Position numbers and translations under genes: made by a program
Shown here: piece by piece, positions 7,423 to 17,675 of the stretch
Layout of the letters: each line of letters begins with the position of its first letter
How positions within the stretch are numbered: position 1 is the stretch's first letter
The notes under the pieces: generated by a model
What the model saw: the letters and a program-made list of their open reading frames with translations, nothing else
What the model was told of the DNA's origin: nothing
Databases searched by the model: none
NCBI GenBank assembly: GCA_965248825.1
Contig: CBDFKL010000006.1
Location: 1,025,893 to 1,089,892 of the forward strand
Reading direction: 5' to 3'
From: Alphaproteobacteria bacterium
GTDB lineage: Bacteria > Pseudomonadota > Alphaproteobacteria > UBA828
Length of the DNA stretch: 64,000 nucleotides

Positions 7423-8793
7423 GTGAGCGCGGCTCCCGATCCACCGCCGCAGCCGCTCGATCCCATCGAGACCGCGAGCCGCGACGAGATCGAGGCGCTG
7501 CAGGCCGATCGCCTGCGCCGGACGCTGCGCCACGCCTACGACAATGTCGCCCACTATCGCTCACGCTTCGATGCTCTCGGCCTTTGCCCCGACGATGTGG
7601 ACATGCCGGCCGACATCACCAAGCTTCCGTTCACCGAAAAAGAGGATTTGCGGGCGAACTATCCGTTCGGGCTCCTTGCCGTGTCCCGGCAGCGGATCGC
7701 CCGCATCCATGCCTCGAGCGGAACCACCGGCCACCCGACCGTCGTCGGCCACACCATGCGGGACATCGAGGTCTGGGCCGGTCTGATGGCCCGATCCATT
7801 CGGGCGGCCGGCGGCCGGGCGGGGGACGTCGCCCATGTCGCCTACGGTTACGGCCTGTTCACCGGCGGTCTCGGCGCCCATTACGGCGCCGAGCTTCTGG
7901 GCTGCACGGTGATCCCGGTGTCCGGCGGCATGACGGAGCGCCAAGTCCGGATCATCGACGACCTCAAACCGGATATCATCCTGGTGACGCCGTCCTACAT
8001 GCTGGCCATTGCGGACGAGTTCGAGCGGCAGGGTCTCGATCCCGCCGAGTCTTCGCTCAGGGTCGGCGTGTTCGGCGCGGAACCGTGGACCGAACCGATG
8101 CGCCGGGAAATCGAGGCGCGCTTCGCCATCCACGCCGTCGATATCTACGGTCTCTCGGAGCTGATGGGGCCCGGCGTCGCCTGCGAATGCGTCGAGACCA
8201 AGGACGGCCTGCATCTATGGGAAGATCATTTCTTCCCCGAGATCGTCGATCCGGCGACCGGCGAACCCTTGCCCGACGGAGCGCGGGGCGAGCTCGTCCT
8301 CACGACCTTGAGCCGCGAAGCCATGCCCTTGATCCGCTATCGGACACGCGATCTCACCCGGCTCCTCCCCGGCACCGCCCGAGCCATGCGCCGGCTGGAG
8401 AGGATCACCGGCCGGTCCGACGACATGCTGATCATTCGCGGAGTCAATCTCTTCCCGAGCCAGATCGAGGCGTTGATCCTTCGCATTCCCGATCTCGCCC
8501 CTCACTACCTGCTCGAAGTCCGGCGCGACGGCCGCCTCGACGAACTCGTCGTTCGCGTCGAGGCCCGGGCGGAGACGGTGGACGAACCCGGCCGCCGTGA
8601 TCAGAGCGCGGCGGCTCTCCAGCGTGACATCAAGTCGGTGATCGGGATCAGCGCGAGCGTTCGTATCGCTTCGCCCGGCGAGATCGAGCGCTCCGCCGGC
8701 AAGGCCAAGCGGGTCGTCGATCTCCGGCCCGTCGGCGAGCCTGCCTTGGCTTCGCTATATACTGAAGCCTCCGGATCTCGGCAGCCGGAATGA
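7423..8793 (+). CDS. paaK: Phenylacetate-CoA ligase (PaaK)
   Basis: Very high similarity across the full length to E. coli PaaK (LDPIETAS.DE..ALQ..RL..TL.HAY.NV..YR..FDA.G..PDD ... RIHASSGTTG.PTVVG.T..DI..WA...ARS.RAAGG...D..HVAYGYGLFTGGLGAHYGAE.LG.TVIP.SGG.TE.Q...I.D..PD.I.VTPSY.L....E.ERQ ... LRVGVFGAEPWT..MR.EIE.R..I.A.DIYGLSE.MGPGVA.EC.ET.DG...WEDHF.PEIV.P..G.PL.DG..GEL..TTL..EA.P.IRYRTRDLTRLLPGTAR.MRR..RI.GRSDDMLIIRGVN.FPSQ). GTG start is the first start codon after the paaG stop. Confidence 0.9.
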   Translation: MSAAPDPPPQPLDPIETASRDEIEALQADRLRRTLRHAYDNVAHYRSRFDALGLCPDDVDMPADITKLPFTEKEDLRANYPFGLLAVSRQRIARIHASSGTTGHPTVVGHTMRDIEVWAGLMARSIRAAGGRAGDVAHVAYGYGLFTGGLGAHYGAELLGCTVIPVSGGMTERQVRIIDDLKPDIILVTPSYMLAIADEFERQGLDPAESSLRVGVFGAEPWTEPMRREIEARFAIHAVDIYGLSELMGPGVACECVETKDGLHLWEDHFFPEIVDPATGEPLPDGARGELVLTTLSREAMPLIRYRTRDLTRLLPGTARAMRRLERITGRSDDMLIIRGVNLFPSQIEALILRIPDLAPHYLLEVRRDGRLDELVVRVEARAETVDEPGRRDQSAAALQRDIKSVIGISASVRIASPGEIERSAGKAKRVVDLRPVGEPALASLYTEASGSRQPE

Positions 8794-8804
8794 GGAGACG
8801 GGCG

Positions 8805-9899
8805 ATGTCCGCAGAACGCAGGCCCACCCCGGCGCAACTGGCGAGCGTCATCGAGACGCCGCCGGGCGATCCGACCGAGGCGCCCGATGCCATGGCCATT
8901 CTCTATGGTTGCGAAGAGCCGCCGCCCTTCCCCGAGCGCAATGTCTTCCCGATCGAGTGGCGCACCGAGACGCCGAAGCTGTGGGATCTCTACAACAAGT
9001 CCCGCGATCCCGGCTGGGCGCCGAACAAGCTGCCCTGGGAAACGCTGAAGCCCGAAGACTTCACCCTCGATCAGCGCTATGCGCTGGCCTATTGGTTCGC
9101 CCTGCTATCGGTCTTCGACAGTTCCGGCCCGGCGGTTTTTGCCCGCGCCATGATCCACACCTACGAGACCCATGCCGAAGATCCGCTGCGGAAATGCTTT
9201 TTCTCGATCACCCGCGACGAGGTCAACCATGAGGAGGTCTGTCAGCTCGCCATCCAGACGCTGACGCCGGGCGGCCCGCTCGACTACGAGCCGGAGACCG
9301 CCCTCGGCCGGCTCGCCCGCAACAACATCAAGTGGTATTTCCACAATGGCTGCCGCTACTGGGAAGGCTTCAAGAACGGCGTCCACAAGTTCCCGCTGCC
9401 GATCCTGTTTTCCGCCTTTCTGATGGGCGAGGTCGCCTCCTCGACCCTGTTTCACGCCATGTACCGGCGCACGACCATCCCGGCCTTCAAGGAGGCGTTC
9501 CGCCGGGTCGGCCAGGACGAGGCGCGCCATATGGGTATCTGCATGACCGTGCTGGAGAAGATCCTGCCCGAGGCCACCGATGAGCAACGGGCGCAGATCA
9601 CCAAGCAGATCCGTGCGGGCTATGTGTTCCTGTCCGGTATTCTCTATGAACCGCCCGACGAGTTCTGGGAGCTGCCGGAGACCTTCCGCCCCGCCCATCA
9701 GCTCCTCGAAGAGACCGCCCGCGATGCCGGGCTCGGGATTCTCGACCTCGCGGAGCGGCGCGACAACTGGCGGACCGCGGTGCTCAAGCTCAAGGGCGTC
9801 CTCGAACCCCACGGCGTCGAATTCCCAAGCATTCCGGAGATCGGCGTCGACGGGAAGACTGTCAGCTTCGACCCGGAAGATATCATCCCGGTCTTTTGA
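8805..9899 (+). CDS. Uncharacterised ferritin-like diiron-carboxylate protein (two DExxH motifs); putative oxygenase/hydroxylase
   Basis: 364 aa with ...SITRDEVNHEEVCQL... and ...RVGQDEARHMGICM... about 100 aa apart, the (D/E)ExxH pairs typical of diiron four-helix-bundle oxygenases such as PaaA, R2, sMMO and desaturases. GAGGAG ribosome-binding site 6 nt before the ATG. Either this start or the alternative ATG at 8790 overlapping the paaK stop implies translational coupling. No recognisable similarity to PaaA, PaaC or BoxB beyond the metal motifs. Confidence 0.7.
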   Translation: MSAERRPTPAQLASVIETPPGDPTEAPDAMAILYGCEEPPPFPERNVFPIEWRTETPKLWDLYNKSRDPGWAPNKLPWETLKPEDFTLDQRYALAYWFALLSVFDSSGPAVFARAMIHTYETHAEDPLRKCFFSITRDEVNHEEVCQLAIQTLTPGGPLDYEPETALGRLARNNIKWYFHNGCRYWEGFKNGVHKFPLPILFSAFLMGEVASSTLFHAMYRRTTIPAFKEAFRRVGQDEARHMGICMTVLEKILPEATDEQRAQITKQIRAGYVFLSGILYEPPDEFWELPETFRPAHQLLEETARDAGLGILDLAERRDNWRTAVLKLKGVLEPHGVEFPSIPEIGVDGKTVSFDPEDIIPVF

Positions 9900-9987: not shown

Positions 9988-10935
9988 ATGACCGCGCGCC
10001 CTCTGATCATCGATTGCGACCCCGGCCAGGACGATGCCATAGCCCTCTTGCTGGCGATGGCCTCGCCCGAGACGTTGGAGCTCGTGGGCATCAGCGCCGT
10101 CGCGGGCAATGTGCCGCTCGGTCGGACCGAGAGCAATGCGCGCCGGATCAGGGATCTCGCCGGCCGGCCCGATGTGCCGGTCTATGCCGGCTGCTCGCGG
10201 CCGATGGTCCGAACCCTGGAGACCGCCGAATACATCCATGGCGATACCGGGATCGACGGCGCGGACCTGCCGGAGCCGAGCCGGCCTGCCGAGCCGATCC
10301 ACGGTGTGGACTTCCTGGTCGACACCCTGCTCGCTGCGCCCGTGCCGGTGACGCTCGCGACCCTCGGGCCGCTGACCAATGTCGGGCTCGCGATCGTCAA
10401 GCGCCCCGAGATTCTCGAGAACGTCCGCGAGATCGTCGCCATGGGCGGGGCGATCGGGCTCGGCAATATCACGCCGGCAGCCGAGTTCAACGTCTATGCC
10501 GATCCCCATGCGGCGCATGTGGTGTTCGAGGCGGGTGTGCCGCTCACCATGATCGGGCTCGACGTGACCCATCAGGCGATCGCGACGCCTGCCCGCATCG
10601 AGGCGATTCGAGCGCTCGACACGGCGCCCGCCGCCTCGGTATGTGGCATGCTCGACGTCTATGGTGCGAAGAATGTTGCCGCCTACGACCACGGCGCGCC
10701 GCTGCACGACCCGTGCGTGATCGCCTACCTGCTGGCACCCCGCCTCTTCGAGGGCCGGGACATGCGGGTCGATATCGAGCTCAATGAGGGCCACTCCTTC
10801 GGTCGCACCGTCTGCGACCGCCACGGCCGGCAGGGCCTGGCCGCGAACGCCCGCGTTCTCGAGAAAATCGATGCCGACGGCTTTTTCGCCTTGCTGACCG
10901 AGCGTTTGGCACGGCTGCCGGCCAACCCCACATAA
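9988..10935 (+). CDS. Inosine-uridine preferring nucleoside hydrolase (IUNH/Rih family)
   Basis: N-terminal IIDCDPGQDDAIAL (DxDxxxDD Ca-binding motif), central His, about 315 aa. Confidence 0.85.
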   Translation: MTARPLIIDCDPGQDDAIALLLAMASPETLELVGISAVAGNVPLGRTESNARRIRDLAGRPDVPVYAGCSRPMVRTLETAEYIHGDTGIDGADLPEPSRPAEPIHGVDFLVDTLLAAPVPVTLATLGPLTNVGLAIVKRPEILENVREIVAMGGAIGLGNITPAAEFNVYADPHAAHVVFEAGVPLTMIGLDVTHQAIATPARIEAIRALDTAPAASVCGMLDVYGAKNVAAYDHGAPLHDPCVIAYLLAPRLFEGRDMRVDIELNEGHSFGRTVCDRHGRQGLAANARVLEKIDADGFFALLTERLARLPANPT

Positions 10936-10942
10936 GAACCGG

Positions 10943-10999: not shown

Positions 11000-11710
11000 A
11001 TGAGCCGCGAGCGAAAGCTGCCGACTCGCGATAGCGACGGCAGCGCCGACATCGACGCCTTCCTGCGGCGGGTCGCGGCGATCCCGGCGCCGGTGGCGCA
11101 CGGCCAGACCGGGCGCCTCGTTTTCGCGATGGACGCGACGGCGAGTCGAGAGCCGACCTGGGATCGCGCCTGCCAGATCCAGGGCGAGATGTTCGACGCG
11201 ACGGCCTCGCTCGGGGGCCTCGCGGTGCAGCTCGTCTACTATCGCGGTTTCGGGGAGTGCCGGGCGAGCGGCTGGGCGCGGGATTCGCGCTCCCTGGTGC
11301 GCTATATGACCGGCGTCTTTTGCCTCGGCGGCCACACCCAAATCCGCAAGGTGCTGCGCCACACGATCAAGGAAACCAGGCGCAAACGAGTCCACGCGCT
11401 GGTCTTCGTCGGCGACAGCATGGAGGAGAACGTAGACGATCTATGCGCGCTCGCCGGCGAGCTCGGCCTGCTCGGCGTCCCCGCCTTCATGTTCCATGAG
11501 GGGCCCGACCCGGCGGCGAGCCTGGCGTTTCGCCAGATTGCCCGGCTGACCAACGGCGCCTATCTGCGCTTCGACGCCTCGAGCGCGCGCCAGCTCAAGG
11601 AGCTGCTCGGCGCTGTCGCCGTCTACGCCGCCGGCGGGCGCAAGGCGCTTCAGCATTATGGCGAGCAGCGCGGCGAGGCGGTTCTGCAGATCGCGCATCA
11701 GATCAAGTGA
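11000..11710 (+). CDS. von Willebrand factor A (VWA) domain protein, about 236 aa
   Basis: MIDAS-like residues (LVFAMDATASREPTWD ... ALVFVGDSMEEN). Size and fold are consistent with small cytosolic VWA proteins conserved in alphaproteobacteria. Confidence 0.65.
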   Translation: MSRERKLPTRDSDGSADIDAFLRRVAAIPAPVAHGQTGRLVFAMDATASREPTWDRACQIQGEMFDATASLGGLAVQLVYYRGFGECRASGWARDSRSLVRYMTGVFCLGGHTQIRKVLRHTIKETRRKRVHALVFVGDSMEENVDDLCALAGELGLLGVPAFMFHEGPDPAASLAFRQIARLTNGAYLRFDASSARQLKELLGAVAVYAAGGRKALQHYGEQRGEAVLQIAHQIK

Positions 11711-11760
11711 GCGCGTTGCGCCTGCTTGCCCGCCTGCCGACCCGTTAGATCGCCGCCTCG

Positions 11761-12510
11761 ATGGTCGCCTACGTCCTTCTCGGAATTGCGCTCCTGGTGC
11801 TGGTCGTGGTGCTCAGCCGCTGGTTCGCCTCGGCCAATCCGTCGAGCCTCGCGAAGTGGCTCAAATGGGGTTTCATTGCGGCCGGGGGGACGGCGACGAT
11901 CTTTCTCGGCGTCACCGGCAAGGCGCAGCTCGCCTTCATCCCGCTCGCGCTGACCGGACTGCCGTGGCTCATGAGCCGAATGGCGGCGGGCCGGGGCAAC
12001 CCGCACCCAACCCAGGGCGGGCGCTCGGACGTCGAGACCCCCCATCTCCGCATGACCCTCGACCATGACAGCGGCGAGATGGACGGCGTCGTCCTGCAGG
12101 GGCGCTACGCCGGGCGCCGGCTCGAAGATCTGTCGGAGCCCCAGCTCCTGGACCTGCTCGACGAGTGCGCCGCCGATGACGAGCAGAGCCGGCGGTTGCT
12201 CGAGACCTATCTCGACCGGACCCTCGGCGCCGACTGGCGCGCGCGTACCGGCGAGCGTTCCCAGCGGCAAGCCGGCTCCTCTTCCGCCGGCGGCGGCGGA
12301 CAAAGGGGCTGGGGGCGCAAGCCCGCCGGGCGCGCACCGATGAGCCGCGACGAGGCCTACGAGATCCTCGGCCTCGAGCCCGGTGCCGGCGAGGACGAGA
12401 TCAAGGAGGCGCACCGGACCCTCATGCTCAAGCTGCACCCCGACCATGGCGGTTCGAACTACCTCGCCGCCAAAATCAACCAGGCCAAGGAATTGCTGCT
12501 CGGTCGCTGA
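11761..12510 (+). CDS. Membrane-anchored J-domain protein (DjlA-like co-chaperone): two N-terminal TM helices, Gly/Arg-rich linker, C-terminal DnaJ domain
   Basis: Hydrophobic segments ([17 protein letters not shown]; [32 protein letters not shown]). C-terminal J domain [49 protein letters not shown] with the HPD motif. Stop TGA is 2 nt before the galU ATG. Confidence 0.75.
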
Positions 12511-12512
12511 CC

Positions 12513-13400
12513 ATGGCAAGGACGATGAAACCCGTGAGGAAAGCCGTGTTCCCGGTCGCCGGCATGGGCACGCGATTCCTCCCCGCGAGCAAAGCGGTCC
12601 CCAAGGAAATGCTGCCGGTGGTCGACAAGCCGCTCATCCAATATGCGGTCGAGGAGGCGCGGGCGGCCGGGATCGAGCAGTTCATCTTCGTCACCGGCCG
12701 AGGCAAGGCGGCAATCGAGGACCATTTCGATCGCCACGAAGAACTGCGTGCCCTCCTCGCCGCGCGCGGCGAGACGGCCGCGGCGGCGCTGTTGGAGGGC
12801 TCGACCCTGGCGCCCGGCGCCGCGTCGTTCACGCGCCAGCAGACGCCGATGGGCCTCGGCCATGCCGTCCTCTGTGCGCGCGACCTCGTCGGCGATGAGC
12901 CGTTCGCGGTGCTGCTGCCGGACGAGCTGCTGCTCGCCGAGCCGCCCTGCCTGACCGAGCTCGTGGATGCCTATGGCCGAACCGGAGGCAATGTCATCTC
13001 GCTCACCGCTGTACCGGCGAGCGAGACCAGTCGCTACGGGATCGTCGAGCTGTCGGCGCAGGAGGGGCGGTGTGTGACGATCTCGGACATGGTGGAGAAA
13101 CCCGCGCCCGCCGACGCGCCCTCTCGTCTCGCGATCACCGGCCGCTACATCCTGCAACCCGAGGTGTTCGGACGGCTCGAGGCGCAAGCCCCGGGGCGGG
13201 GCGCCGAAATACAATTGACCGACGCCATGGCCGCGATGGCGCGGGAGGGACGAGTCCACGGTCTCCTCTATACCGGCCGGCGCTTCGATTGCGGCAGCAA
13301 GATCGGATTCCTCCAAGCCAATATCGCCTATGCCATGGAACGGTCGGAATTGAGGCAGGACTTGCTCGCTTTCTTGCAAGAGACTATGCCCTCGTCATAG
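12513..13400 (+). CDS. galU: UTP--glucose-1-phosphate uridylyltransferase
   Basis: AVFPVAGMGTRFLPASKAVPKEMLPVVDKPLIQYAVEEA, the canonical GalU N-terminus, 295 aa. Confidence 0.9.
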   Translation: MARTMKPVRKAVFPVAGMGTRFLPASKAVPKEMLPVVDKPLIQYAVEEARAAGIEQFIFVTGRGKAAIEDHFDRHEELRALLAARGETAAAALLEGSTLAPGAASFTRQQTPMGLGHAVLCARDLVGDEPFAVLLPDELLLAEPPCLTELVDAYGRTGGNVISLTAVPASETSRYGIVELSAQEGRCVTISDMVEKPAPADAPSRLAITGRYILQPEVFGRLEAQAPGRGAEIQLTDAMAAMAREGRVHGLLYTGRRFDCGSKIGFLQANIAYAMERSELRQDLLAFLQETMPSS

Positions 13401-13443
13401 ACCGGCTCCCTCTTGAAGGGGCCGTTTGTCAAGGAGCACCTTC

Positions 13444-14799
13444 ATGCGCGTCGCGATGATTGGCGCCGGCTATGTCGGTCTGGTGTCGGCCGCATGCTTC
13501 TCGGAGTTCGGTTTCACCGTGAGCTGCGTCGATGCGGCGCCGGAGCGGATCGCGGCCTTGCGGGCCGGGCGGATCCCGATCTACGAGCCGGGCCTGGATG
13601 CGCTGGTTGCCAGCAATGTGACGGCCGGGCGTCTCTCCTTCGCGACCGAAATCGCCGAGGCGGTGCCGTCGGCCGATGTGGTGATGCTGGCGGTCGGCAC
13701 GCCGAGCCGGCGCGGCGACGCTCATGCCGACCTTTCCTTTGTTCACGAAGCCGCCCGCCAGGTTGCCGATACGCTCGACGGCTACACCGTGGTCGCGACC
13801 AAATCGACGGTGCCCGTCGGCACCGGCCGCGAGATCGCCCGGATCATCCGAGAGCGGCGGCCCGATGCCGCGTTCGACCTCGTCTCGAACCCGGAGTTCC
13901 TCCGCGAAGGCTCGGCGATCGGCGATTTCATGCGCCCGGACCGGATCGTCGTCGGGGTCGAATCGGCGCGGGCGCAGGCCGTCATGCAGGCACTCTACAG
14001 GCCGCTTTTCCTGATCGAGACGCCGGTGCTGTTCACCACGCTCGAGACGGCGGAGCTCACCAAATACGCCTCCAACTGCTTTCTCGCGACCAAGATCACG
14101 TTCATCAACGAAATCGCGGATATCTGCGAGCAAGTCGGTGCCGACGTCCAGGACATCGCGAAGGGGATCGGCCTCGATGGCCGCATCGGGCGGCACTTTC
14201 TGCATGCGGGGCCGGGTTTCGGCGGTTCCTGCTTTCCGAAGGATGCCGCGGCCTTTGTCCGTATCGCCGAGGACGCCGGCACGCCGAGCCGGATCGTTGA
14301 AACCGTCCTGCGGAGCAATGCCGAGCGCAAGGCCAAGATGGCCGACAAGATCGTGTACGCCTGCGGCGGTACGGTCGCGGGCAAGACCATCGCGGCGCTC
14401 GGTGTCACCTTCAAGCCAAACACCGACGATGTGCGGGAAAGCCCGAGCCTCGTGATCCTGCCCGGCCTGACGGAGCGGGGCGCGACCGTGCGCGCATTCG
14501 ATCCGGCGGGCATGGACGAGGCGCGGAGCAAGCTCGACGGCGTCATCTGGTGCCGCGACGCCTACGATGCGATGACAGGCGCCGATGCGCTGGTCATCCT
14601 CACGGAATGGAACGAGTTCAGGGCGCTCGATCTGAGCCGCGTCAAAGACCTCGTGAAAACGCCGCTGATCGTCGATCTCCGCAATATCTACGCGCCGCAC
14701 GAAGTGGTCGAAGCCGGCTTTTGCTATGTGAGCGTCGGGCGGCCGACGGCGCGGCCGTCGGCGGGCGCCAGCCATCTGCGCACCGCCAGCTCGGCATGA
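13444..14799 (+). CDS. ugd: UDP-glucose 6-dehydrogenase
   Basis: MRVAMIGAGYVGLVSAACF Rossmann N-terminus, catalytic GFGGSCFPKD. AAGGAG ribosome-binding site upstream. Stop overlaps the next start (ATGA). Confidence 0.9.
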   Translation: MRVAMIGAGYVGLVSAACFSEFGFTVSCVDAAPERIAALRAGRIPIYEPGLDALVASNVTAGRLSFATEIAEAVPSADVVMLAVGTPSRRGDAHADLSFVHEAARQVADTLDGYTVVATKSTVPVGTGREIARIIRERRPDAAFDLVSNPEFLREGSAIGDFMRPDRIVVGVESARAQAVMQALYRPLFLIETPVLFTTLETAELTKYASNCFLATKITFINEIADICEQVGADVQDIAKGIGLDGRIGRHFLHAGPGFGGSCFPKDAAAFVRIAEDAGTPSRIVETVLRSNAERKAKMADKIVYACGGTVAGKTIAALGVTFKPNTDDVRESPSLVILPGLTERGATVRAFDPAGMDEARSKLDGVIWCRDAYDAMTGADALVILTEWNEFRALDLSRVKDLVKTPLIVDLRNIYAPHEVVEAGFCYVSVGRPTARPSAGASHLRTASSA

Positions 14800-16190
14800 G
14801 CGTTGGCCGCGTGCTCGACTCGACGATCCTCGGCGAATACGACATCAGGGGGATCGTCGGTGAGACTCTCTCCGAAGCCGACATGGGCGCGATCGGCAGA
14901 GGCTTCGCCACCATCGCACGGCAGAGGGCGCCGGCCGGCCGCCGGCCGCCGATCTGTGTCGGTCGCGACGGCCGGCTGACCTCTGCGGCCCTCGAGGCAC
15001 GCCTGGTCGAAGGCCTGTGCGCCGGCGGCGCGGAGGTGATCCGGATCGGGGTCGGCCCGACGCCGATGCTTTACTTCGCCGTCCATGAGCGGCGGAGCGA
15101 CGGCGGGATGATGGTCACGGGCTCGCACAATCCGCCGCAATATAACGGCGTCAAGATGATGCTCGGCGGACGGCCGTTCTATGGCGCGGACATCGTCGAG
15201 CTGGCACGGATCGTCGCCGCCGGGGCGCTCGCGGAAGGCGCAGGCCCCGCGACGGAGGTCGACCTCGCCGCCGACTATGTCGCGCGCCTGCTGTGCGAGG
15301 CCGGCGAGGGCGACCTCAAGGTGGCATGGGATGCCGGCAACGGCGCCGCCGGCGCGGTGCTCGAAGCGCTCGCCGACGGCCTTCCGGGGCGCCACCTGCT
15401 GCTGAATGCTGCGATAGACGGGACCTTTCCCGCCCATCATCCGGACCCGACGGTGCCCGACAACCTGGTCCAGTTGATCGATACGGTGCGGGCCGAGGGC
15501 TGCGACCTCGGGATCGCCTTCGATGGCGACGGCGATCGCATCGGGGTCGTGGACCAGGATGGAGAGATCCTCTGGGGCGATCAGATCCTGGCCCTGTTGG
15601 CCCGCGAGGTACTGCGCGACCGGCCAGGCGCGACAATTATCGCCGACGTCAAGGCAAGCCAGGTTCTATTCGACGAGATCGCGCGCCTGGGCGGCAAGCC
15701 GCTGATGTGGATCACCGGCCACTCGGTGATCAAGGCGAAGATGGCCGAGCTCGGCGCGCCGCTCGCCGGCGAGATGAGCGGTCATATTTTCTTCGCCGAC
15801 CGCTATTACGGCTTCGACGATGCGCTCTATGCCGGCGTTCGCCTGCTGCGGCTGATCGAAAGCGAGGGGCGCTCACTTGCCGCCCTGAGGGCCGAACTCC
15901 CGCGCCGGGTCAGCACGCCCGAGATCCGCTTCGCGTGTCCGAACGAACGCAAGTTCGCGGTTGTCGATGAGGTCCGCGCCCGTCTCGAGGCCGCAGCCGA
16001 GCCGTTCAACGGCATTGACGGGGTCAGGGTCCAGACCGAGGATGGCGGCTGGTGGCTGCTCCGCGCGTCGAACACCCAGCCCGTGCTGGTGGCGCGCTGC
16101 GAGGCAGAGGACGCCGGTGCCCTGGCGCGCCTGAAACGCAGTTTGACGGCGCAGCTTCGGGCGAGCGGCGTGGAGCCGCCCGACTTCTGA
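14796..16190 (+). CDS. Phosphomannomutase/phosphoglucomutase (AlgC/PMM-PGM family)
   Basis: Start ATG overlapping the ugd stop (GCATGA). Motifs TGSHNPPQYNGVKM (active-site Ser loop), FDGDGDRIGVVD (metal-binding), GEMSGHIFF. Confidence 0.85.
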   Translation: MSVGRVLDSTILGEYDIRGIVGETLSEADMGAIGRGFATIARQRAPAGRRPPICVGRDGRLTSAALEARLVEGLCAGGAEVIRIGVGPTPMLYFAVHERRSDGGMMVTGSHNPPQYNGVKMMLGGRPFYGADIVELARIVAAGALAEGAGPATEVDLAADYVARLLCEAGEGDLKVAWDAGNGAAGAVLEALADGLPGRHLLLNAAIDGTFPAHHPDPTVPDNLVQLIDTVRAEGCDLGIAFDGDGDRIGVVDQDGEILWGDQILALLAREVLRDRPGATIIADVKASQVLFDEIARLGGKPLMWITGHSVIKAKMAELGAPLAGEMSGHIFFADRYYGFDDALYAGVRLLRLIESEGRSLAALRAELPRRVSTPEIRFACPNERKFAVVDEVRARLEAAAEPFNGIDGVRVQTEDGGWWLLRASNTQPVLVARCEAEDAGALARLKRSLTAQLRASGVEPPDF

Positions 16191-16197
16191 GACCCAG

Positions 16198-16222
16198 CGC
16201 CCGCCATGGCAGGGCCTATTTT
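16198..16222 (+). terminator. Putative intrinsic terminator after pgm (GCCC...GGGC stem followed by CTATTTTCG)
   Basis: Short GC stem plus T-run 8 nt after the TGA stop, at the entrance to an unusually AT-rich 150-nt island. Confidence 0.3.
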
Positions 16223-16346
16223 CGATAAATGTTCTAAATCAAATGCTTCCAACTTCCTTTTTACCTCTTTGTTTCGCTTGACGAGCGAACCCTCTTTGAT
16301 TCATAACAAAGGGTAATCCGATTCGACCCTGCCATCGAGGCGGACG

Positions 16347-17675
16347 TTGCGGACAACGCAGAGAACACATTGCATCCGGTCGGGCCCGGCCATTCTCGGG
16401 CTCGTTCTTTTCCTCTGCATACTTATCGGCGTCCAGACCCTCGCCGCGCAGCAGGCGCACGCGGGATACGCCTCGATCATCGTCGACGCCGAGACCGGCG
16501 AGGTCCTGCGGTCGCGCAACGCCGACACGCGGAACTATCCGGCCTCGCTGACCAAGCTCATGACTCTCTATCTGCTCTTCGAAGCTGTCGAAGAGGGCCG
16601 GCTCGGTCTCGACACGAAGCTCAAGGTCTCGAAACGGGCGGCCCGACAACCGCCGTCACGGCTCGGTCTGCGTGCCGGCTCGACCATCCGCGTGAAGGAG
16701 GCGATCAACGCGTTGGTCGTCAAGTCGGCCAATGACGTCGCCGTGGTGGTCGCCGAGGCCTTGAGCGGCACGGAGAGACGGTTCGGCGCGCTGATGACCC
16801 GCAAGGCCCGCGCCCTCGGCATGTCCCGAACCACCTTTCGCAATGCATCCGGTCTGCCGAACCGGGCGCAACGGAGCACAGCGCGGGACATGGCGCGACT
16901 CGCCCGCGCCCTGATCCACATTTTCCCCCACCGCTATCACTATTTCGGCGACAAGCGCTATCGCTATTCGGGGACGCTGCACCGCACGCATAACCAGCTG
17001 ATCGGCAGTTATCGCGGCGTCGACGGCATGAAGACCGGCTATATCCGAGCCTCCGGCTTCAACCTCGTGGCGTCGGCCAAGCGCAACGGCAGGCGCATCA
17101 TCGCGGTGGTGCTCGGCGGCAAGACGTCGCGCTCGCGAAACGCTCATATGGTCACGCTCCTCGACATGGGCTTCAAGCGGCTTGTCGCACGCCATGCCAA
17201 GCGTGGCCGCACCCTCTTTGCCGAGATTCCGCAACCGGCGTTCAGGAGCGACTCGGCCGCGCCGGGACCGAGGTTCAAGCCCGCCCCGGTCAGGCTCGCC
17301 CAGGCCCCGAACGCGGCCGAGGTGGCCGCGATCCCCAAACCGGTCAAGACCGCTGCGGTCACCGCGGCGGCGGCCACGGCCGAACGCGCCGCCGGCCGCC
17401 CGTGGAGCATCCAGGTGGGCGCCTATGCGTCGGTCACGGCAGCCGAGATCGCCATCCGCCGTGCCACCGTGCGGAGCCGGCTCCTGGACGGTGTGGCATC
17501 CACTCTGGCGCGCCACGAGGCGCGCCAAGGCACCCTCTATCGGGTCCGCTTCATCGGGCTTTACCGGAGCGACGCCAACCAAGCCTGCCGAGCGGTTCGC
17601 ACCGCCACGATGCCATGCGTCGTGATCCACAACCGTGACATAGGCACCGATCTCGGAGCGCGCGCACGCTCCTGA
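16347..17675 (+). CDS. D-alanyl-D-alanine carboxypeptidase (S11, PBP5/6-like) with C-terminal SPOR domain
   Basis: SxxK (PASLTKLMT), SxN (KSANDVA) and KTG motifs. N-terminal signal-like segment. C-terminal about 80 aa (WSIQVGAYASVTAAEIAIRRATV...LYRVRFIGLYRSDANQACRAVR) looks like a SPOR peptidoglycan-binding domain. Confidence 0.8.
   Translation: MRTTQRTHCIRSGPAILGLVLFLCILIGVQTLAAQQAHAGYASIIVDAETGEVLRSRNADTRNYPASLTKLMTLYLLFEAVEEGRLGLDTKLKVSKRAARQPPSRLGLRAGSTIRVKEAINALVVKSANDVAVVVAEALSGTERRFGALMTRKARALGMSRTTFRNASGLPNRAQRSTARDMARLARALIHIFPHRYHYFGDKRYRYSGTLHRTHNQLIGSYRGVDGMKTGYIRASGFNLVASAKRNGRRIIAVVLGGKTSRSRNAHMVTLLDMGFKRLVARHAKRGRTLFAEIPQPAFRSDSAAPGPRFKPAPVRLAQAPNAAEVAAIPKPVKTAAVTAAAATAERAAGRPWSIQVGAYASVTAAEIAIRRATVRSRLLDGVASTLARHEARQGTLYRVRFIGLYRSDANQACRAVRTATMPCVVIHNRDIGTDLGARARS

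What the first reader, a model, noticed from the sequence alone, without database searches (positions are those of the whole stretch)
11000..16190. VWA protein plus DjlA-like membrane J-domain co-chaperone forming the head of the galU-ugd-pgm UDP-sugar operon
Five same-strand genes lie with gaps of 51, 2, 43 and -4 nt: VWA, a TM-anchored J-domain protein, galU, ugd and pgm/pmm. A putative terminator appears only after pgm. In E. coli the only membrane-anchored J-protein, DjlA, is best known for switching on colanic-acid capsule synthesis through RcsC, and UDP-glucose and UDP-glucuronate are the capsule precursors. A DjlA-like protein physically fused into a UDP-sugar precursor operon, together with a MIDAS-containing VWA partner, suggests an uncharacterised chaperone-based control or assembly module for exopolysaccharide precursor supply in this lineage.
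Basis: inference. Interest (0 to 1): 0.55.

Follow-up and report, generated by a model that had tools for sequence, protein, structure and literature searches.

The report
VWA plus Pam18-type J-protein gene pair
The five genes are real and their order is widely conserved, but the "DjlA-like" protein is a bacterial relative of the mitochondrial import-motor J-protein Pam18/Tim14. It always sits next to an uncharacterised VWA protein, and this pair is a self-contained unit whose link to UDP-sugar supply is conserved neighbourhood, not shown function.

Summary
Five same-strand genes (VWA-like, membrane J-protein, galU, ugd, pgmG-type mutase) lie at 11000-16190 with gaps of 50, 2 (or 14), 43 and -4 nt.

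VWA and J are adjacent in all 78 informative related loci, with a median gap of about 7 nt. This includes gammaproteobacterial MAGs and Hyphomicrobiales replicons that have no galU nearby. The conserved unit is therefore the pair.

The order VWA-J-galU-(ugd)-pgm is also kept in about 50 of 55 alphaproteobacterial loci, including Azospirillum brasilense. The J-to-galU spacer is usually about 110 nt. In two thirds of cases it carries a conserved promoter-like motif. Only the window's own subclade has collapsed this spacer (-4 to +14 nt), giving an operon-like fusion.

A role in UDP-sugar or exopolysaccharide control remains plausible but unproven. The pair most likely forms a membrane-tethered DnaK-recruiting module.

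The parts
9988..10935 (+). rihA-like pyrimidine nucleoside hydrolase. It is the upstream neighbour and part of the syntenic block in the window's clade.
   Evidence: PF01156 at E 8.6e-97; RihA and UriH NCBIfam models score below cutoff. It lies upstream of VWA in L001-L005, L010, L013, L027, L049 and L084-L088. The gap to VWA is only 3 nt in L087.
11000..11710 (+). Cytoplasmic VWA-fold protein with a complete MIDAS motif (D45-x-T47-x-S49, T113, D139). It has a conserved C-terminal helix carrying the motif AVAVYAAGG.
   Evidence: No Pfam or NCBIfam hit. Family members give only subthreshold VWA_2 and VWA_CoxE hits. The AF2 model has pLDDT 70.6. Top Foldseek PDB hits are all VWA domains, E 3e-8 to 6e-5. 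The MIDAS residues are invariant in 20 homologues. No signal peptide or TM segment is seen in the sequence.
11761..12510 (+). Inner-membrane J-domain protein of the Tim14/Pam18 type. It has three N-terminal helices (residues 2-78), a conserved middle domain (residues 88-173) without a known fold, a Gly-rich linker, and a C-terminal J-domain (residues 196-247) with HPD at 226-228.
12022..12279 (+). Coding region of the J-protein's conserved middle domain. It contains the motif LRM.LDHDSG.M.G.VL.G...GR.L, three to four beta strands and three helices. It is the candidate docking site for the VWA partner or a client.
   Evidence: pLDDT is about 95. It is nearly invariant across alpha- and gammaproteobacterial members. 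No Pfam hit and no significant PDB match.
12493..12518 (+). Look-alike of the promoter-like motif found upstream of galU in relatives (TTGC-N17-TGGCA). It straddles the J stop codon and the galU ATG.
   Evidence: It is one of only 2 matches in the 64-kb window on both strands. The TGGCA here is the galU ATG-GCA, and the TTGC comes from a TTG Leu codon in J. The match is shared with L084 but not L087. Its function is doubtful, because a transcript started here would begin inside the galU 5' end.
12513..13400 (+). [quoted passage not shown]
   Evidence: TIGR01099 at 321.7 bits (cutoff 326.8); PF00483 at E 1e-25.
13444..14799 (+). ugd, UDP-glucose 6-dehydrogenase.
   Evidence: PF03721, PF00984 and PF03720 all match; TIGR03026 at 454 bits.
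14796..16190 (+). pgmG-type phosphoglucomutase/phosphomannomutase. Its start overlaps the ugd stop by 4 nt.
   Evidence: NF046027 PgmG at 683 bits, above the cutoff of 600; four PGM_PMM domains.
16199..16223 (+). Weak terminator-like hairpin followed by CUAUUUUC, just after pgm.
   Evidence: Read directly from the sequence. The consensus scan did not report it.

Best explanation
The finding contains two units.

Unit 1 is the VWA gene plus the J-protein gene. It is a self-contained, vertically conserved two-gene module. A cytoplasmic VWA protein with a MIDAS motif is co-expressed with an inner-membrane J-protein. That J-protein's J-domain is the bacterial counterpart of mitochondrial Pam18/Tim14.

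The inferred mechanism is as follows. The J-protein sits in the inner membrane with its middle domain and J-domain in the cytoplasm. The middle domain docks the VWA protein, or a client held on the VWA MIDAS site. The HPD motif then triggers ATP hydrolysis in DnaK. This brings Hsp70 remodelling or assembly activity to a particular membrane-proximal client. By analogy, VWA adaptors hand clients to MoxR AAA+ ATPases in the same way.

Unit 2 is galU-ugd-pgmG, which supplies UDP-glucose and UDP-glucuronate from glucose-6-phosphate. In many Rhodospirillales-like Alphaproteobacteria it lies directly downstream of unit 1, but it normally has its own promoter-like element. In the window's subclade the spacer has been lost. 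The five genes there (six with rihA in some relatives) are most likely one transcript.

What is shown: the gene content, the folds, the Tim14-type J-domain, the pairing, the synteny and the motif. What is inferred: VWA-J binding, DnaK recruitment, the identity of the client, and co-transcription. A functional tie between the pair and UDP-sugar or envelope polysaccharide synthesis is possible but not demonstrated.
For: Pairing:
- VWA and J are adjacent on the same strand in 78 of 78 loci that continue past VWA. The median gap is about 7 nt, with several overlaps.
- The same holds in Azospirillum, Microvirga and Methylobacterium replicons.

Autonomy:
- 16 gammaproteobacterial MAG loci carry the tight pair with unrelated, variable flanks.
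- The Hyphomicrobiales replicons lack galU nearby.

Identity:
- VWA fold and invariant MIDAS.
- Tim14 is the best match by four methods, and 32 of 33 members hit Pam16.
- Published work states that Pam18 has clear bacterial/alphaproteobacterial homologues (PMC8662606; PMC13428257).

Separate galU unit:
- The median J-to-galU spacer is 111 nt.
- The motif TTGNN-N14-17-TGGCA occurs in 37 of 56 galU-upstream regions, against a shuffle mean of 0.3. It occurs in 1 of 81 VWA-upstream regions.
- The motif stays next to galU when 1.3-3.4 kb is inserted, and it is present in A. brasilense.

Fusion in this lineage:
- The junction is -4, 2 or 14 nt in the window, L084/85 and L087/88, against 45-93 nt in the next relatives.
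Against: - No direct evidence shows that VWA and J bind each other or DnaK. No multimer prediction was possible, and no VWA-J fusion proteins were seen among 150 representatives.
- The promoter-like motif has not been validated. Its -10 part (CAMAWA) is not a canonical sigma-70 hexamer.
- The strong conservation of the five-gene block (about 50 of 55 alphaproteobacterial loci, with variable upstream neighbours) is more than background synteny. It could mean a real functional coupling, which this explanation leaves open.
- The 80 loci are the best VWA matches out of at least 514 relatives, so the sampling is biased.
Confidence: 0.6

Rival explanations
1. VWA and J form a chaperone-based control or assembly module dedicated to UDP-sugar or exopolysaccharide precursor supply. 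For example, they could tether or mature GalU, Ugd and Pgm, or the membrane glycosyltransferases these enzymes feed. That role would explain why they head the galU-ugd-pgm cluster.
For: - The five-gene order is kept across many alphaproteobacterial families at 59-85% VWA identity.
- About 50 of 55 alphaproteobacterial loci have galU or ugd downstream, while the upstream neighbour falls into 33 clusters.
- A. brasilense keeps VWA-J-galU even without ugd and pgm. That galU is regulated during flocculation/EPS formation (PMC4264754).
- The junction is tight in the window's subclade.
Against: - The pair exists without galU nearby in gammaproteobacterial MAGs, Microvirga and Methylobacterium.
- galU has its own conserved promoter-like motif in two thirds of relatives.
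- Unrelated genes are inserted between J and galU in 6 loci.
- No EPS or glycosyltransferase genes lie in the neighbourhood.
- The DjlA/Rcs analogy fails.
Confidence: 0.25
2. The J-protein is a DjlA orthologue. It would act through an Rcs-like phosphorelay to switch on capsule synthesis.
For: It has the same overall layout: an N-terminal membrane anchor and a C-terminal J-domain. The weak top NCBIfam hit is DjlA.
Against: - The DjlA equivalog HMM scores 25 bits against a cutoff of 162, and only over the J-domain.
- There is no TerB-like central domain.
- It has three predicted N-terminal helices rather than one.
- The J-domain has the short Tim14 form, HPDxGGSxYLAxKINxAK.
Confidence: 0.03
3. 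The adjacency to galU is neutral inherited synteny with read-through transcription. VWA-J would serve a general membrane proteostasis or translocation role unrelated to sugars, for example assisting a translocase as Pam18 does at TIM23.
For: - The J-domain is Pam18/Tim14-type.
- The pair is autonomous in other lineages.
- Other neighbours (rihA, dac) are also regionally conserved, with dac on either strand.
- galU has a separate promoter-like motif.
Against: - The VWA upstream boundary is variable, while galU is retained downstream in about 90% of sampled alphaproteobacterial loci. That is more than neutral synteny usually gives across orders.
- No translocase gene is linked to the pair.
Confidence: 0.3
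4. The pair is a mobile defence or toxin-antitoxin-like cassette that happens to have landed next to galU.
For: It is a compact two-gene unit. It occurs on large plasmids or chromids in some genera. It is found in two proteobacterial classes at similar identity.
Against: - No PADLOC match for either protein.
- Its position is stable and its sequence highly conserved, comparable to the neighbouring housekeeping enzymes.
- No mobile-element genes flank it in most loci.
- The 'plasmids' are 0.45-1.6 Mb chromid-like replicons.
Confidence: 0.03

Closest known systems
Mitochondrial Pam18/Tim14 (DNAJC19/DNAJC15), the J-subunit of the TIM23 import motor
   Same: - It has an N-terminal membrane anchor with the C-terminal J-domain on the matrix/cytoplasmic side.
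- It has the short J-domain form with HPD followed directly by GGSxYLAxKINxAKxxL.
- Published work treats Pam18 as having alphaproteobacterial homologues.
- From memory, not checked here: Clements et al. 2009 PNAS named such a Caulobacter protein TimB.
   Different: - It has three predicted N-terminal helices.
- It has an extra, highly conserved 85-residue middle domain of unknown fold.
- No Pam16-like partner gene is nearby.
- Its constant partner is a VWA protein, which has no counterpart in the mitochondrial motor.
- There is no TIM23 channel in bacteria.
E. coli DjlA
   Same: It is a membrane-anchored class III J-protein with a C-terminal J-domain that works with DnaK.
   Different: - The DjlA HMM scores 25 bits against a cutoff of 162.
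- There is no TerB-type central domain.
- The J-domain subtype is different.
- DjlA has no VWA partner gene.
- The Rcs/colanic-acid link belongs to DjlA and cannot be transferred.
MoxR AAA+ / VWA chaperone pairs (RavA-ViaA, NorQ-NorD, CbbQ-CbbO, CoxD-CoxE)
   Same: - A small cytoplasmic VWA protein with a MIDAS motif is encoded next to the gene for a component of an ATP-driven remodelling machine.
- These pairs are thought to mature specific complexes (RavA-ViaA: PMC3893208, abstract seen).
- Family members give weak VWA_CoxE hits, and NorQD appears among the fold matches.
   Different: - No AAA+ gene is adjacent.
- The partner is a J-domain protein, so the ATPase engaged would be Hsp70/DnaK.
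- I know of no description of such a VWA-J pairing, and the one full-text search I ran for it found none.
Rpn10 and TFIIH p44/p34 VWA domains
   Same: These are the closest solved folds, with a weak sequence-profile hit to Rpn10 (E 0.14). They are intracellular VWA domains that act as protein-protein scaffolds.
   Different: They are eukaryotic, sequence identity is only 10-15%, and there is no functional link.

Membership tests
VWA domain with MIDAS | Rossmann-like alpha/beta VWA fold | tested here: met
   AF2 model with pLDDT 70.6 and pTM 0.75. There are 119 Foldseek PDB hits at E<=1e-3, and the top 50 are VWA domains.
VWA domain with MIDAS | MIDAS residues DxSxS ... T ... D | tested here: met
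   D45-A-T47-A-S49 (a DxTxS variant), T113 in GGHTQ and D139 in VGD are invariant in 20 homologues.
VWA domain with MIDAS | Match to a curated VWA HMM above threshold | tested here: not met
   The window protein has no Pfam or NCBIfam hit. Relatives give only subthreshold hits: VWA_2 in 14 of 20 (best E 0.0011) and VWA_CoxE in 12 of 20.
VWA domain with MIDAS | Metal-dependent ligand binding | not testable with these tools
   Needs biochemistry.
DjlA | Score above the cutoff of the DjlA equivalog HMM (NF006948) | tested here: not met
   25 bits against a cutoff of 162, with the match confined to residues 181-229.
DjlA | Central TerB-like domain between the TM segment and the J-domain | tested here: not met
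   No TerB or other Pfam hit in residues 80-190 in any of the 33 family members.
DjlA | N-terminal membrane anchor plus C-terminal J-domain | tested here: met
   Helices at residues 2-24, 27-52 and 55-78, and a J-domain at 196-247. There are three helices rather than one.
DjlA | Activation of the Rcs phosphorelay and capsule synthesis | not testable with these tools
   Needs genetics.
Pam18/Tim14-type J-proteins | J-domain with HPD and the Tim14 signature; closest to Tim14 among J-domains | tested here: met
   HPD at 226-228. 2guz_A is the top hit by four methods. Pfam Pam16 matches 32 of 33 members, best E 1.7e-8.
Pam18/Tim14-type J-proteins | Membrane anchor N-terminal to the J-domain | tested here: met
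Pam18/Tim14-type J-proteins | Pam16/Tim16-like J-like partner | tested here: not met
   tblastn finds only one J-type gene per locus within +/-8 kb. A partner encoded elsewhere in the genome was not excluded.
Pam18/Tim14-type J-proteins | Association with a Tim17/23 channel and Tim44 | not testable with these tools
   No such genes were seen next to the pair. Protein interactions need experiments.
MoxR-VWA chaperone pair | Adjacent MoxR-type AAA+ ATPase gene | tested here: not met
   No AAA+ gene lies in the annotated or Pfam-marked neighbourhoods or in the gammaproteobacterial loci.
galU-ugd-pgm UDP-sugar gene cluster | All three enzymes present, on the same strand and contiguous | tested here: met
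   The order is conserved in relatives.
Single operon VWA-J-galU-ugd-pgm | No promoter or terminator between J and galU, and co-transcription | tested here: inconclusive
   In the window the gap is 2-14 nt, with no consensus promoter or terminator. Relatives usually carry a promoter-like motif there, and a look-alike lies at 12493-12518. Transcript mapping is needed.

The most novel reading that the evidence does not exclude
The VWA-J pair is the free-living form of the machinery from which the mitochondrial import motor took its J-subunit. In bacteria, a Pam18-type membrane J-protein would work with a dedicated MIDAS-VWA adaptor to bring DnaK to a specific membrane-associated client. This would be an Hsp70 counterpart of the MoxR-VWA systems. 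In Rhodospirillales-like Alphaproteobacteria, that client would belong to the UDP-glucose/UDP-glucuronate-dependent envelope polysaccharide pathway.
Probability: 0.2. Interest if true: 0.75.

Novelty: new variant of a known kind. Interest (0 to 1): 0.5.

Why it matters
[quoted passage not shown] The bacterial homologue is always encoded with, and probably translationally coupled to, a strongly conserved MIDAS-VWA protein. That gives a concrete, testable handle on the function it had before mitochondria arose.

It would also define a new pairing of Hsp70 with an adaptor, parallel to MoxR-VWA systems. The family is large: at least 2135 clusters at 50% identity. No Pfam or NCBIfam model covers the VWA protein or the J-protein's middle domain.

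The conserved position upstream of galU-ugd-pgm gives a first phenotype to test, namely envelope polysaccharide and UDP-sugar pools, in a culturable organism (Azospirillum brasilense).

Tried and rejected
- **Clements et al. 2009 (TimB).** I could not read it by DOI or PMC id. Full-text searches for TimB/TimA found nothing relevant. TimB is therefore cited from memory only.
- **afdb50 fold search.** It was meant to give organism names for J-protein relatives, but the library was unavailable.
- **Cluster member look-up.** It gave almost no source names.
- **Shared promoter upstream of VWA.** A sigma-32-style two-block regex matched only 5 of 81 loci. A Gibbs sampler found no strong common motif. 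I rejected this as a general feature.
- **RNA elements.** Rfam and tRNA scans of the window and four loci found nothing. The galU-upstream motif is therefore not a known RNA family.
- **PADLOC.** No match, so the defence-system reading is rejected.
- **VWA-J fusion proteins.** None were evident among the 150 best family representatives, which are about 160-340 aa long.
- **The TTGC-N17-TGGCA look-alike at 12493-12518.** I considered it as a retained promoter. It is probably not productive, because its TGGCA is the galU ATG-GCA. Two alignments (A2 and A4) disagree on which part of the ancestral spacer was deleted.
- **Unused searches.** The question they could answer, whether the pair occurs apart from galU, was already settled.

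Full report
**1. The observation**

The + strand of 11000-16190 carries five consecutive ORFs.
- A 236-aa protein at 11000-11710.
- A 249-aa protein at 11761-12510.
- GalU at 12513-13400.
- Ugd at 13444-14799 (ATG start; a TTG lies at 13426).
- A phosphoglucomutase/phosphomannomutase at 14796-16190.

The gaps are 50, 2, 43 and -4 nt. If GalU starts at the second ATG (12525), the gap is 14 nt; alignments to relatives begin at residues 5-8.

Pfam and NCBIfam confirm the three enzymes. The mutase passes the PgmG equivalog cutoff (683 against 600 bits).

The consensus scan finds no sigma-70 promoter in the region, and only weak terminator-like sites inside genes. A weak hairpin plus CUAUUUUC follows pgm at 16199-16223.

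**2. The VWA protein**

The first protein matches no Pfam or NCBIfam model. Relatives give only subthreshold VWA_2 and VWA_CoxE hits.

An AlphaFold2 model built on 20 homologues has pLDDT 70.6 and pTM 0.75. It shows the alternating beta-alpha pattern of a VWA domain. Foldseek against the PDB returns VWA domains only at the top: TFIIH p44/p34, Rpn10, TRAP and integrin I domains, at E 3e-8 to 6e-5.

D45, T47, S49, T113 and D139 are invariant. Together they form a complete MIDAS motif in its DxTxS form.

There is no signal peptide or hydrophobic segment, so the protein is cytoplasmic. A C-terminal helix carries the invariant motif AVAVYAAGG.

The family is large:
- More than 8000 word-sharing hits, which saturated the search.
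- 2135 clusters at 50% identity with E<=1e-3, and 345 with E<=1e-30.

**3. The J-protein**

The second protein has a DnaJ domain at residues 199-246 with HPD at 226-228.

It is not DjlA. The DjlA equivalog HMM gives 25 bits against a cutoff of 162, and only over the J-domain. No TerB-type domain is found in any of 33 family members.

The J-domain is of the mitochondrial Tim14/Pam18 type:
- A family profile hits yeast Tim14 (2guz_A) at E 9.8e-16 and 61 bits, while the next J-domain scores 37 bits.
- The window sequence alone gives E 7e-9.
- Foldseek ranks 2guz_A first at 41% identity.
- 32 of 33 members hit Pfam Pam16, best E 1.7e-8.

The shared signature is HPDxGGSxYLAxKINxAKxxL.

The AF2 model has pLDDT 82.6 and shows these parts:
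- Three N-terminal helices at residues 2-78.
- A very confident middle domain at 88-173 with three or four strands and three helices.
- A disordered Gly-rich linker.
- The J-domain.

The middle domain is nearly invariant from alpha- to gammaproteobacterial members. It has no Pfam family and no significant structural match.

Published work states that Pam18 is one of the few import components with clear bacterial (alphaproteobacterial) homologues (PMC8662606; PMC13428257). I recall that Clements et al. 2009 named such a Caulobacter protein TimB, but I could not read that paper here.

**4. The conserved unit is the pair**

A scan of one genome per species found at least 514 loci encoding a relative of the VWA protein. 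The 80 best were fetched.

In all 78 that continue past the VWA gene, the J-protein gene follows on the same strand. The median gap is about 7 nt, with several overlaps.

Sixteen loci labelled as Gammaproteobacteria or Chromatiales MAGs have the tight pair with unrelated, variable flanks and no galU. Large replicons of Microvirga and Methylobacterium (Hyphomicrobiales) also have the pair without galU.

No AAA+ gene, second J-like gene or mobile-element gene is consistently linked. Neither protein matches a known defence system.

**5. The link to galU-ugd-pgm**

In 51 loci, galU (or ugd in three loci that lack galU) follows the J gene within 291 nt. In six more, 1.3-3.4 kb of unrelated genes is inserted.

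About 50 of 55 alphaproteobacterial loci have galU or ugd downstream. The gene upstream of VWA falls into 33 different clusters among 71 loci. The record titles span Kiloniellaceae, Stellaceae, Nisaea, Skermanella, Defluviicoccus, Sneathiella, Pelagibius, Thalassobaculaceae and others.

Azospirillum brasilense has VWA-DnaJ-galU on a 0.7-Mb replicon. A published galU qRT-PCR primer matches the end of that intergenic region. This is therefore the galU whose expression depends on FlcA during flocculation (PMC4264754).

This degree of conservation exceeds ordinary background synteny. The sample is biased towards the best VWA matches.

**6. galU usually has its own promoter-like element**

The median J-to-galU spacer is 111 nt. 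This compares with about 7 nt between VWA and J.

In 37 of 56 galU-upstream regions there is a two-block motif, (C/G)TTGCN-N15-TGGCA(A/C)A(A/T)A. Its spacing is almost fixed, and TGGCA lies 38-86 nt before the start codon. Shuffles give a mean of 0.3 and a maximum of 3. Only 1 of 81 VWA-upstream regions has it.

The spacing fits a -35 TTGC, a 17-nt spacer with an extended -10 TG, and a -10 CAMAWA. This reading is my inference and has not been validated.

The motif stays next to galU where genes are inserted between J and galU, and it is present in A. brasilense. It matches no Rfam family.

**7. The window's subclade has fused the two units**

The closest relatives are 85-88% identical in the J-protein. 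Their J/galU junctions are -4 nt (L084/85) or +14 nt (L087/88), like the 2 nt seen here. The next relatives (L001-L003, L027) have 81-93 nt spacers that carry the motif.

The spacer was therefore lost in this lineage. galU-ugd-pgm is most likely transcribed from upstream, with VWA and J.

In L087 the rihA gene is also only 3 nt from VWA.

A look-alike of the motif lies at 12493-12518, and it is one of only two matches in the window. Its TGGCA is the galU ATG-GCA, so a transcript started there would lack the start codon. I treat it as probably non-functional.

**8. Mechanism**

What is shown:
- A cytoplasmic MIDAS-VWA protein and an inner-membrane Pam18-type J-protein are always encoded together, and their genes often overlap.
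- Both are under strong purifying selection. In the same loci, the median identities are VWA 63%, GalU 59%, Pgm 60% and Ugd 67%. The loci were selected by VWA similarity, which biases this comparison.

What is inferred:
- The two proteins form a complex at the cytoplasmic face of the inner membrane.
- The J-protein's middle domain docks the VWA protein, or a client bound to the VWA MIDAS site. An exposed acidic loop such as LDHDSG is a candidate MIDAS ligand.
- The HPD motif activates DnaK on that client.

This mirrors VWA adaptors that hand clients to MoxR AAA+ ATPases, with Hsp70 as the motor instead.

The client is unknown. The conserved neighbourhood makes UDP-sugar-dependent envelope polysaccharide synthesis a reasonable first candidate in Alphaproteobacteria, but not more than that.

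**9. Verdict**

- The gene order is conserved, and co-transcription in this genome is likely.
- The DjlA/Rcs analogy is wrong.
- The pair is autonomous.
- The sugar genes normally have their own promoter-like element.

I know of no description of the VWA plus Pam18-type J pairing. It is a new variant of known kinds (class III J-protein co-chaperones, and VWA adaptors). Its interest is moderate, mainly as a route to the pre-mitochondrial function of Pam18.

Noticed in passing
Related loci L001-L078 and L081, in the 40-110 nt upstream of galU; window 12493-12518: A conserved two-block promoter-like motif, (C/G)TTGCN-N15-TGGCA(A/C)A(A/T)A, lies 38-86 nt upstream of galU or ugd. It occurs in 37 of 56 loci against a shuffle mean of 0.3, and also in Azospirillum brasilense. 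It is almost absent upstream of VWA (1 of 81). The window has a look-alike overlapping the J stop codon and the galU ATG.
   Followed up: yes
Window 10906-10936 (3' end of rihA); L001-L003, L027 and L048 upstream of VWA: A sigma-32-like pair of elements (TTTGGCA-N14-CCCCACAT in the window; CTGGCG-N14-CCCCATAT in close relatives) lies upstream of the VWA gene: 15-25 nt upstream in relatives and about 70 nt upstream in the window. No motif common to all loci was found (regex 5 of 81; Gibbs sampler weak).
   Followed up: partly
L087 4298-5962, L088; window 9988-10935: A pyrimidine nucleoside hydrolase (RihA/UriH-like) gene sits directly upstream of VWA in the window's clade, only 3 nt away in L087. 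A uridine-releasing enzyme next to UDP-sugar genes may or may not be a coincidence.
   Followed up: no
L008 9391-10893, L017 9455-10930, L031 5466-6998: A recurrent protein of about 500 aa, apparently secreted, with a HEGTHAAQD metalloprotease-like motif. It is encoded immediately after the J gene, overlapping the J stop, in three loci where galU is displaced or absent.
   Followed up: no
Window 16347-17675 and most alphaproteobacterial loci downstream of pgm: A DacA-type D-Ala-D-Ala carboxypeptidase with a C-terminal SPOR domain lies near pgm in most alphaproteobacterial loci, on either strand. It also lies next to the pair in Methylobacterium (L083) and L075, which lack galU.
   Followed up: no
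Window 16210-16340: The pgm-dac spacer is AT-rich. It reaches about 61% GC in 500-nt windows against roughly 68% nearby. It folds more stably than shuffles (z -2.9, 1 of 200 shuffles as stable).
   Followed up: no
Upstream of VWA in L007, L012, L016, L019, L026, L032, L037, L039, L042, L044, L051, L052, L064, L071; and L011, L014, L023, L030, L058, L060: The upstream neighbour of VWA is variable. In 15 loci it is a same-strand protein of about 690 aa that looks like a molybdopterin oxidoreductase (CPHDCPSxC motif). Several other loci have a MipZ/ParA-like ATPase gene ending just before VWA. Both identifications rest on motifs only.
   Followed up: partly
Window 8790-9899: A 369-aa di-iron (AurF/rubrerythrin/RNR-small-like, all below cutoff) protein with no NCBIfam family. 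It is conserved upstream of rihA in L004 and L084-L086, next to AMP-binding and enoyl-CoA hydratase genes.
   Followed up: no
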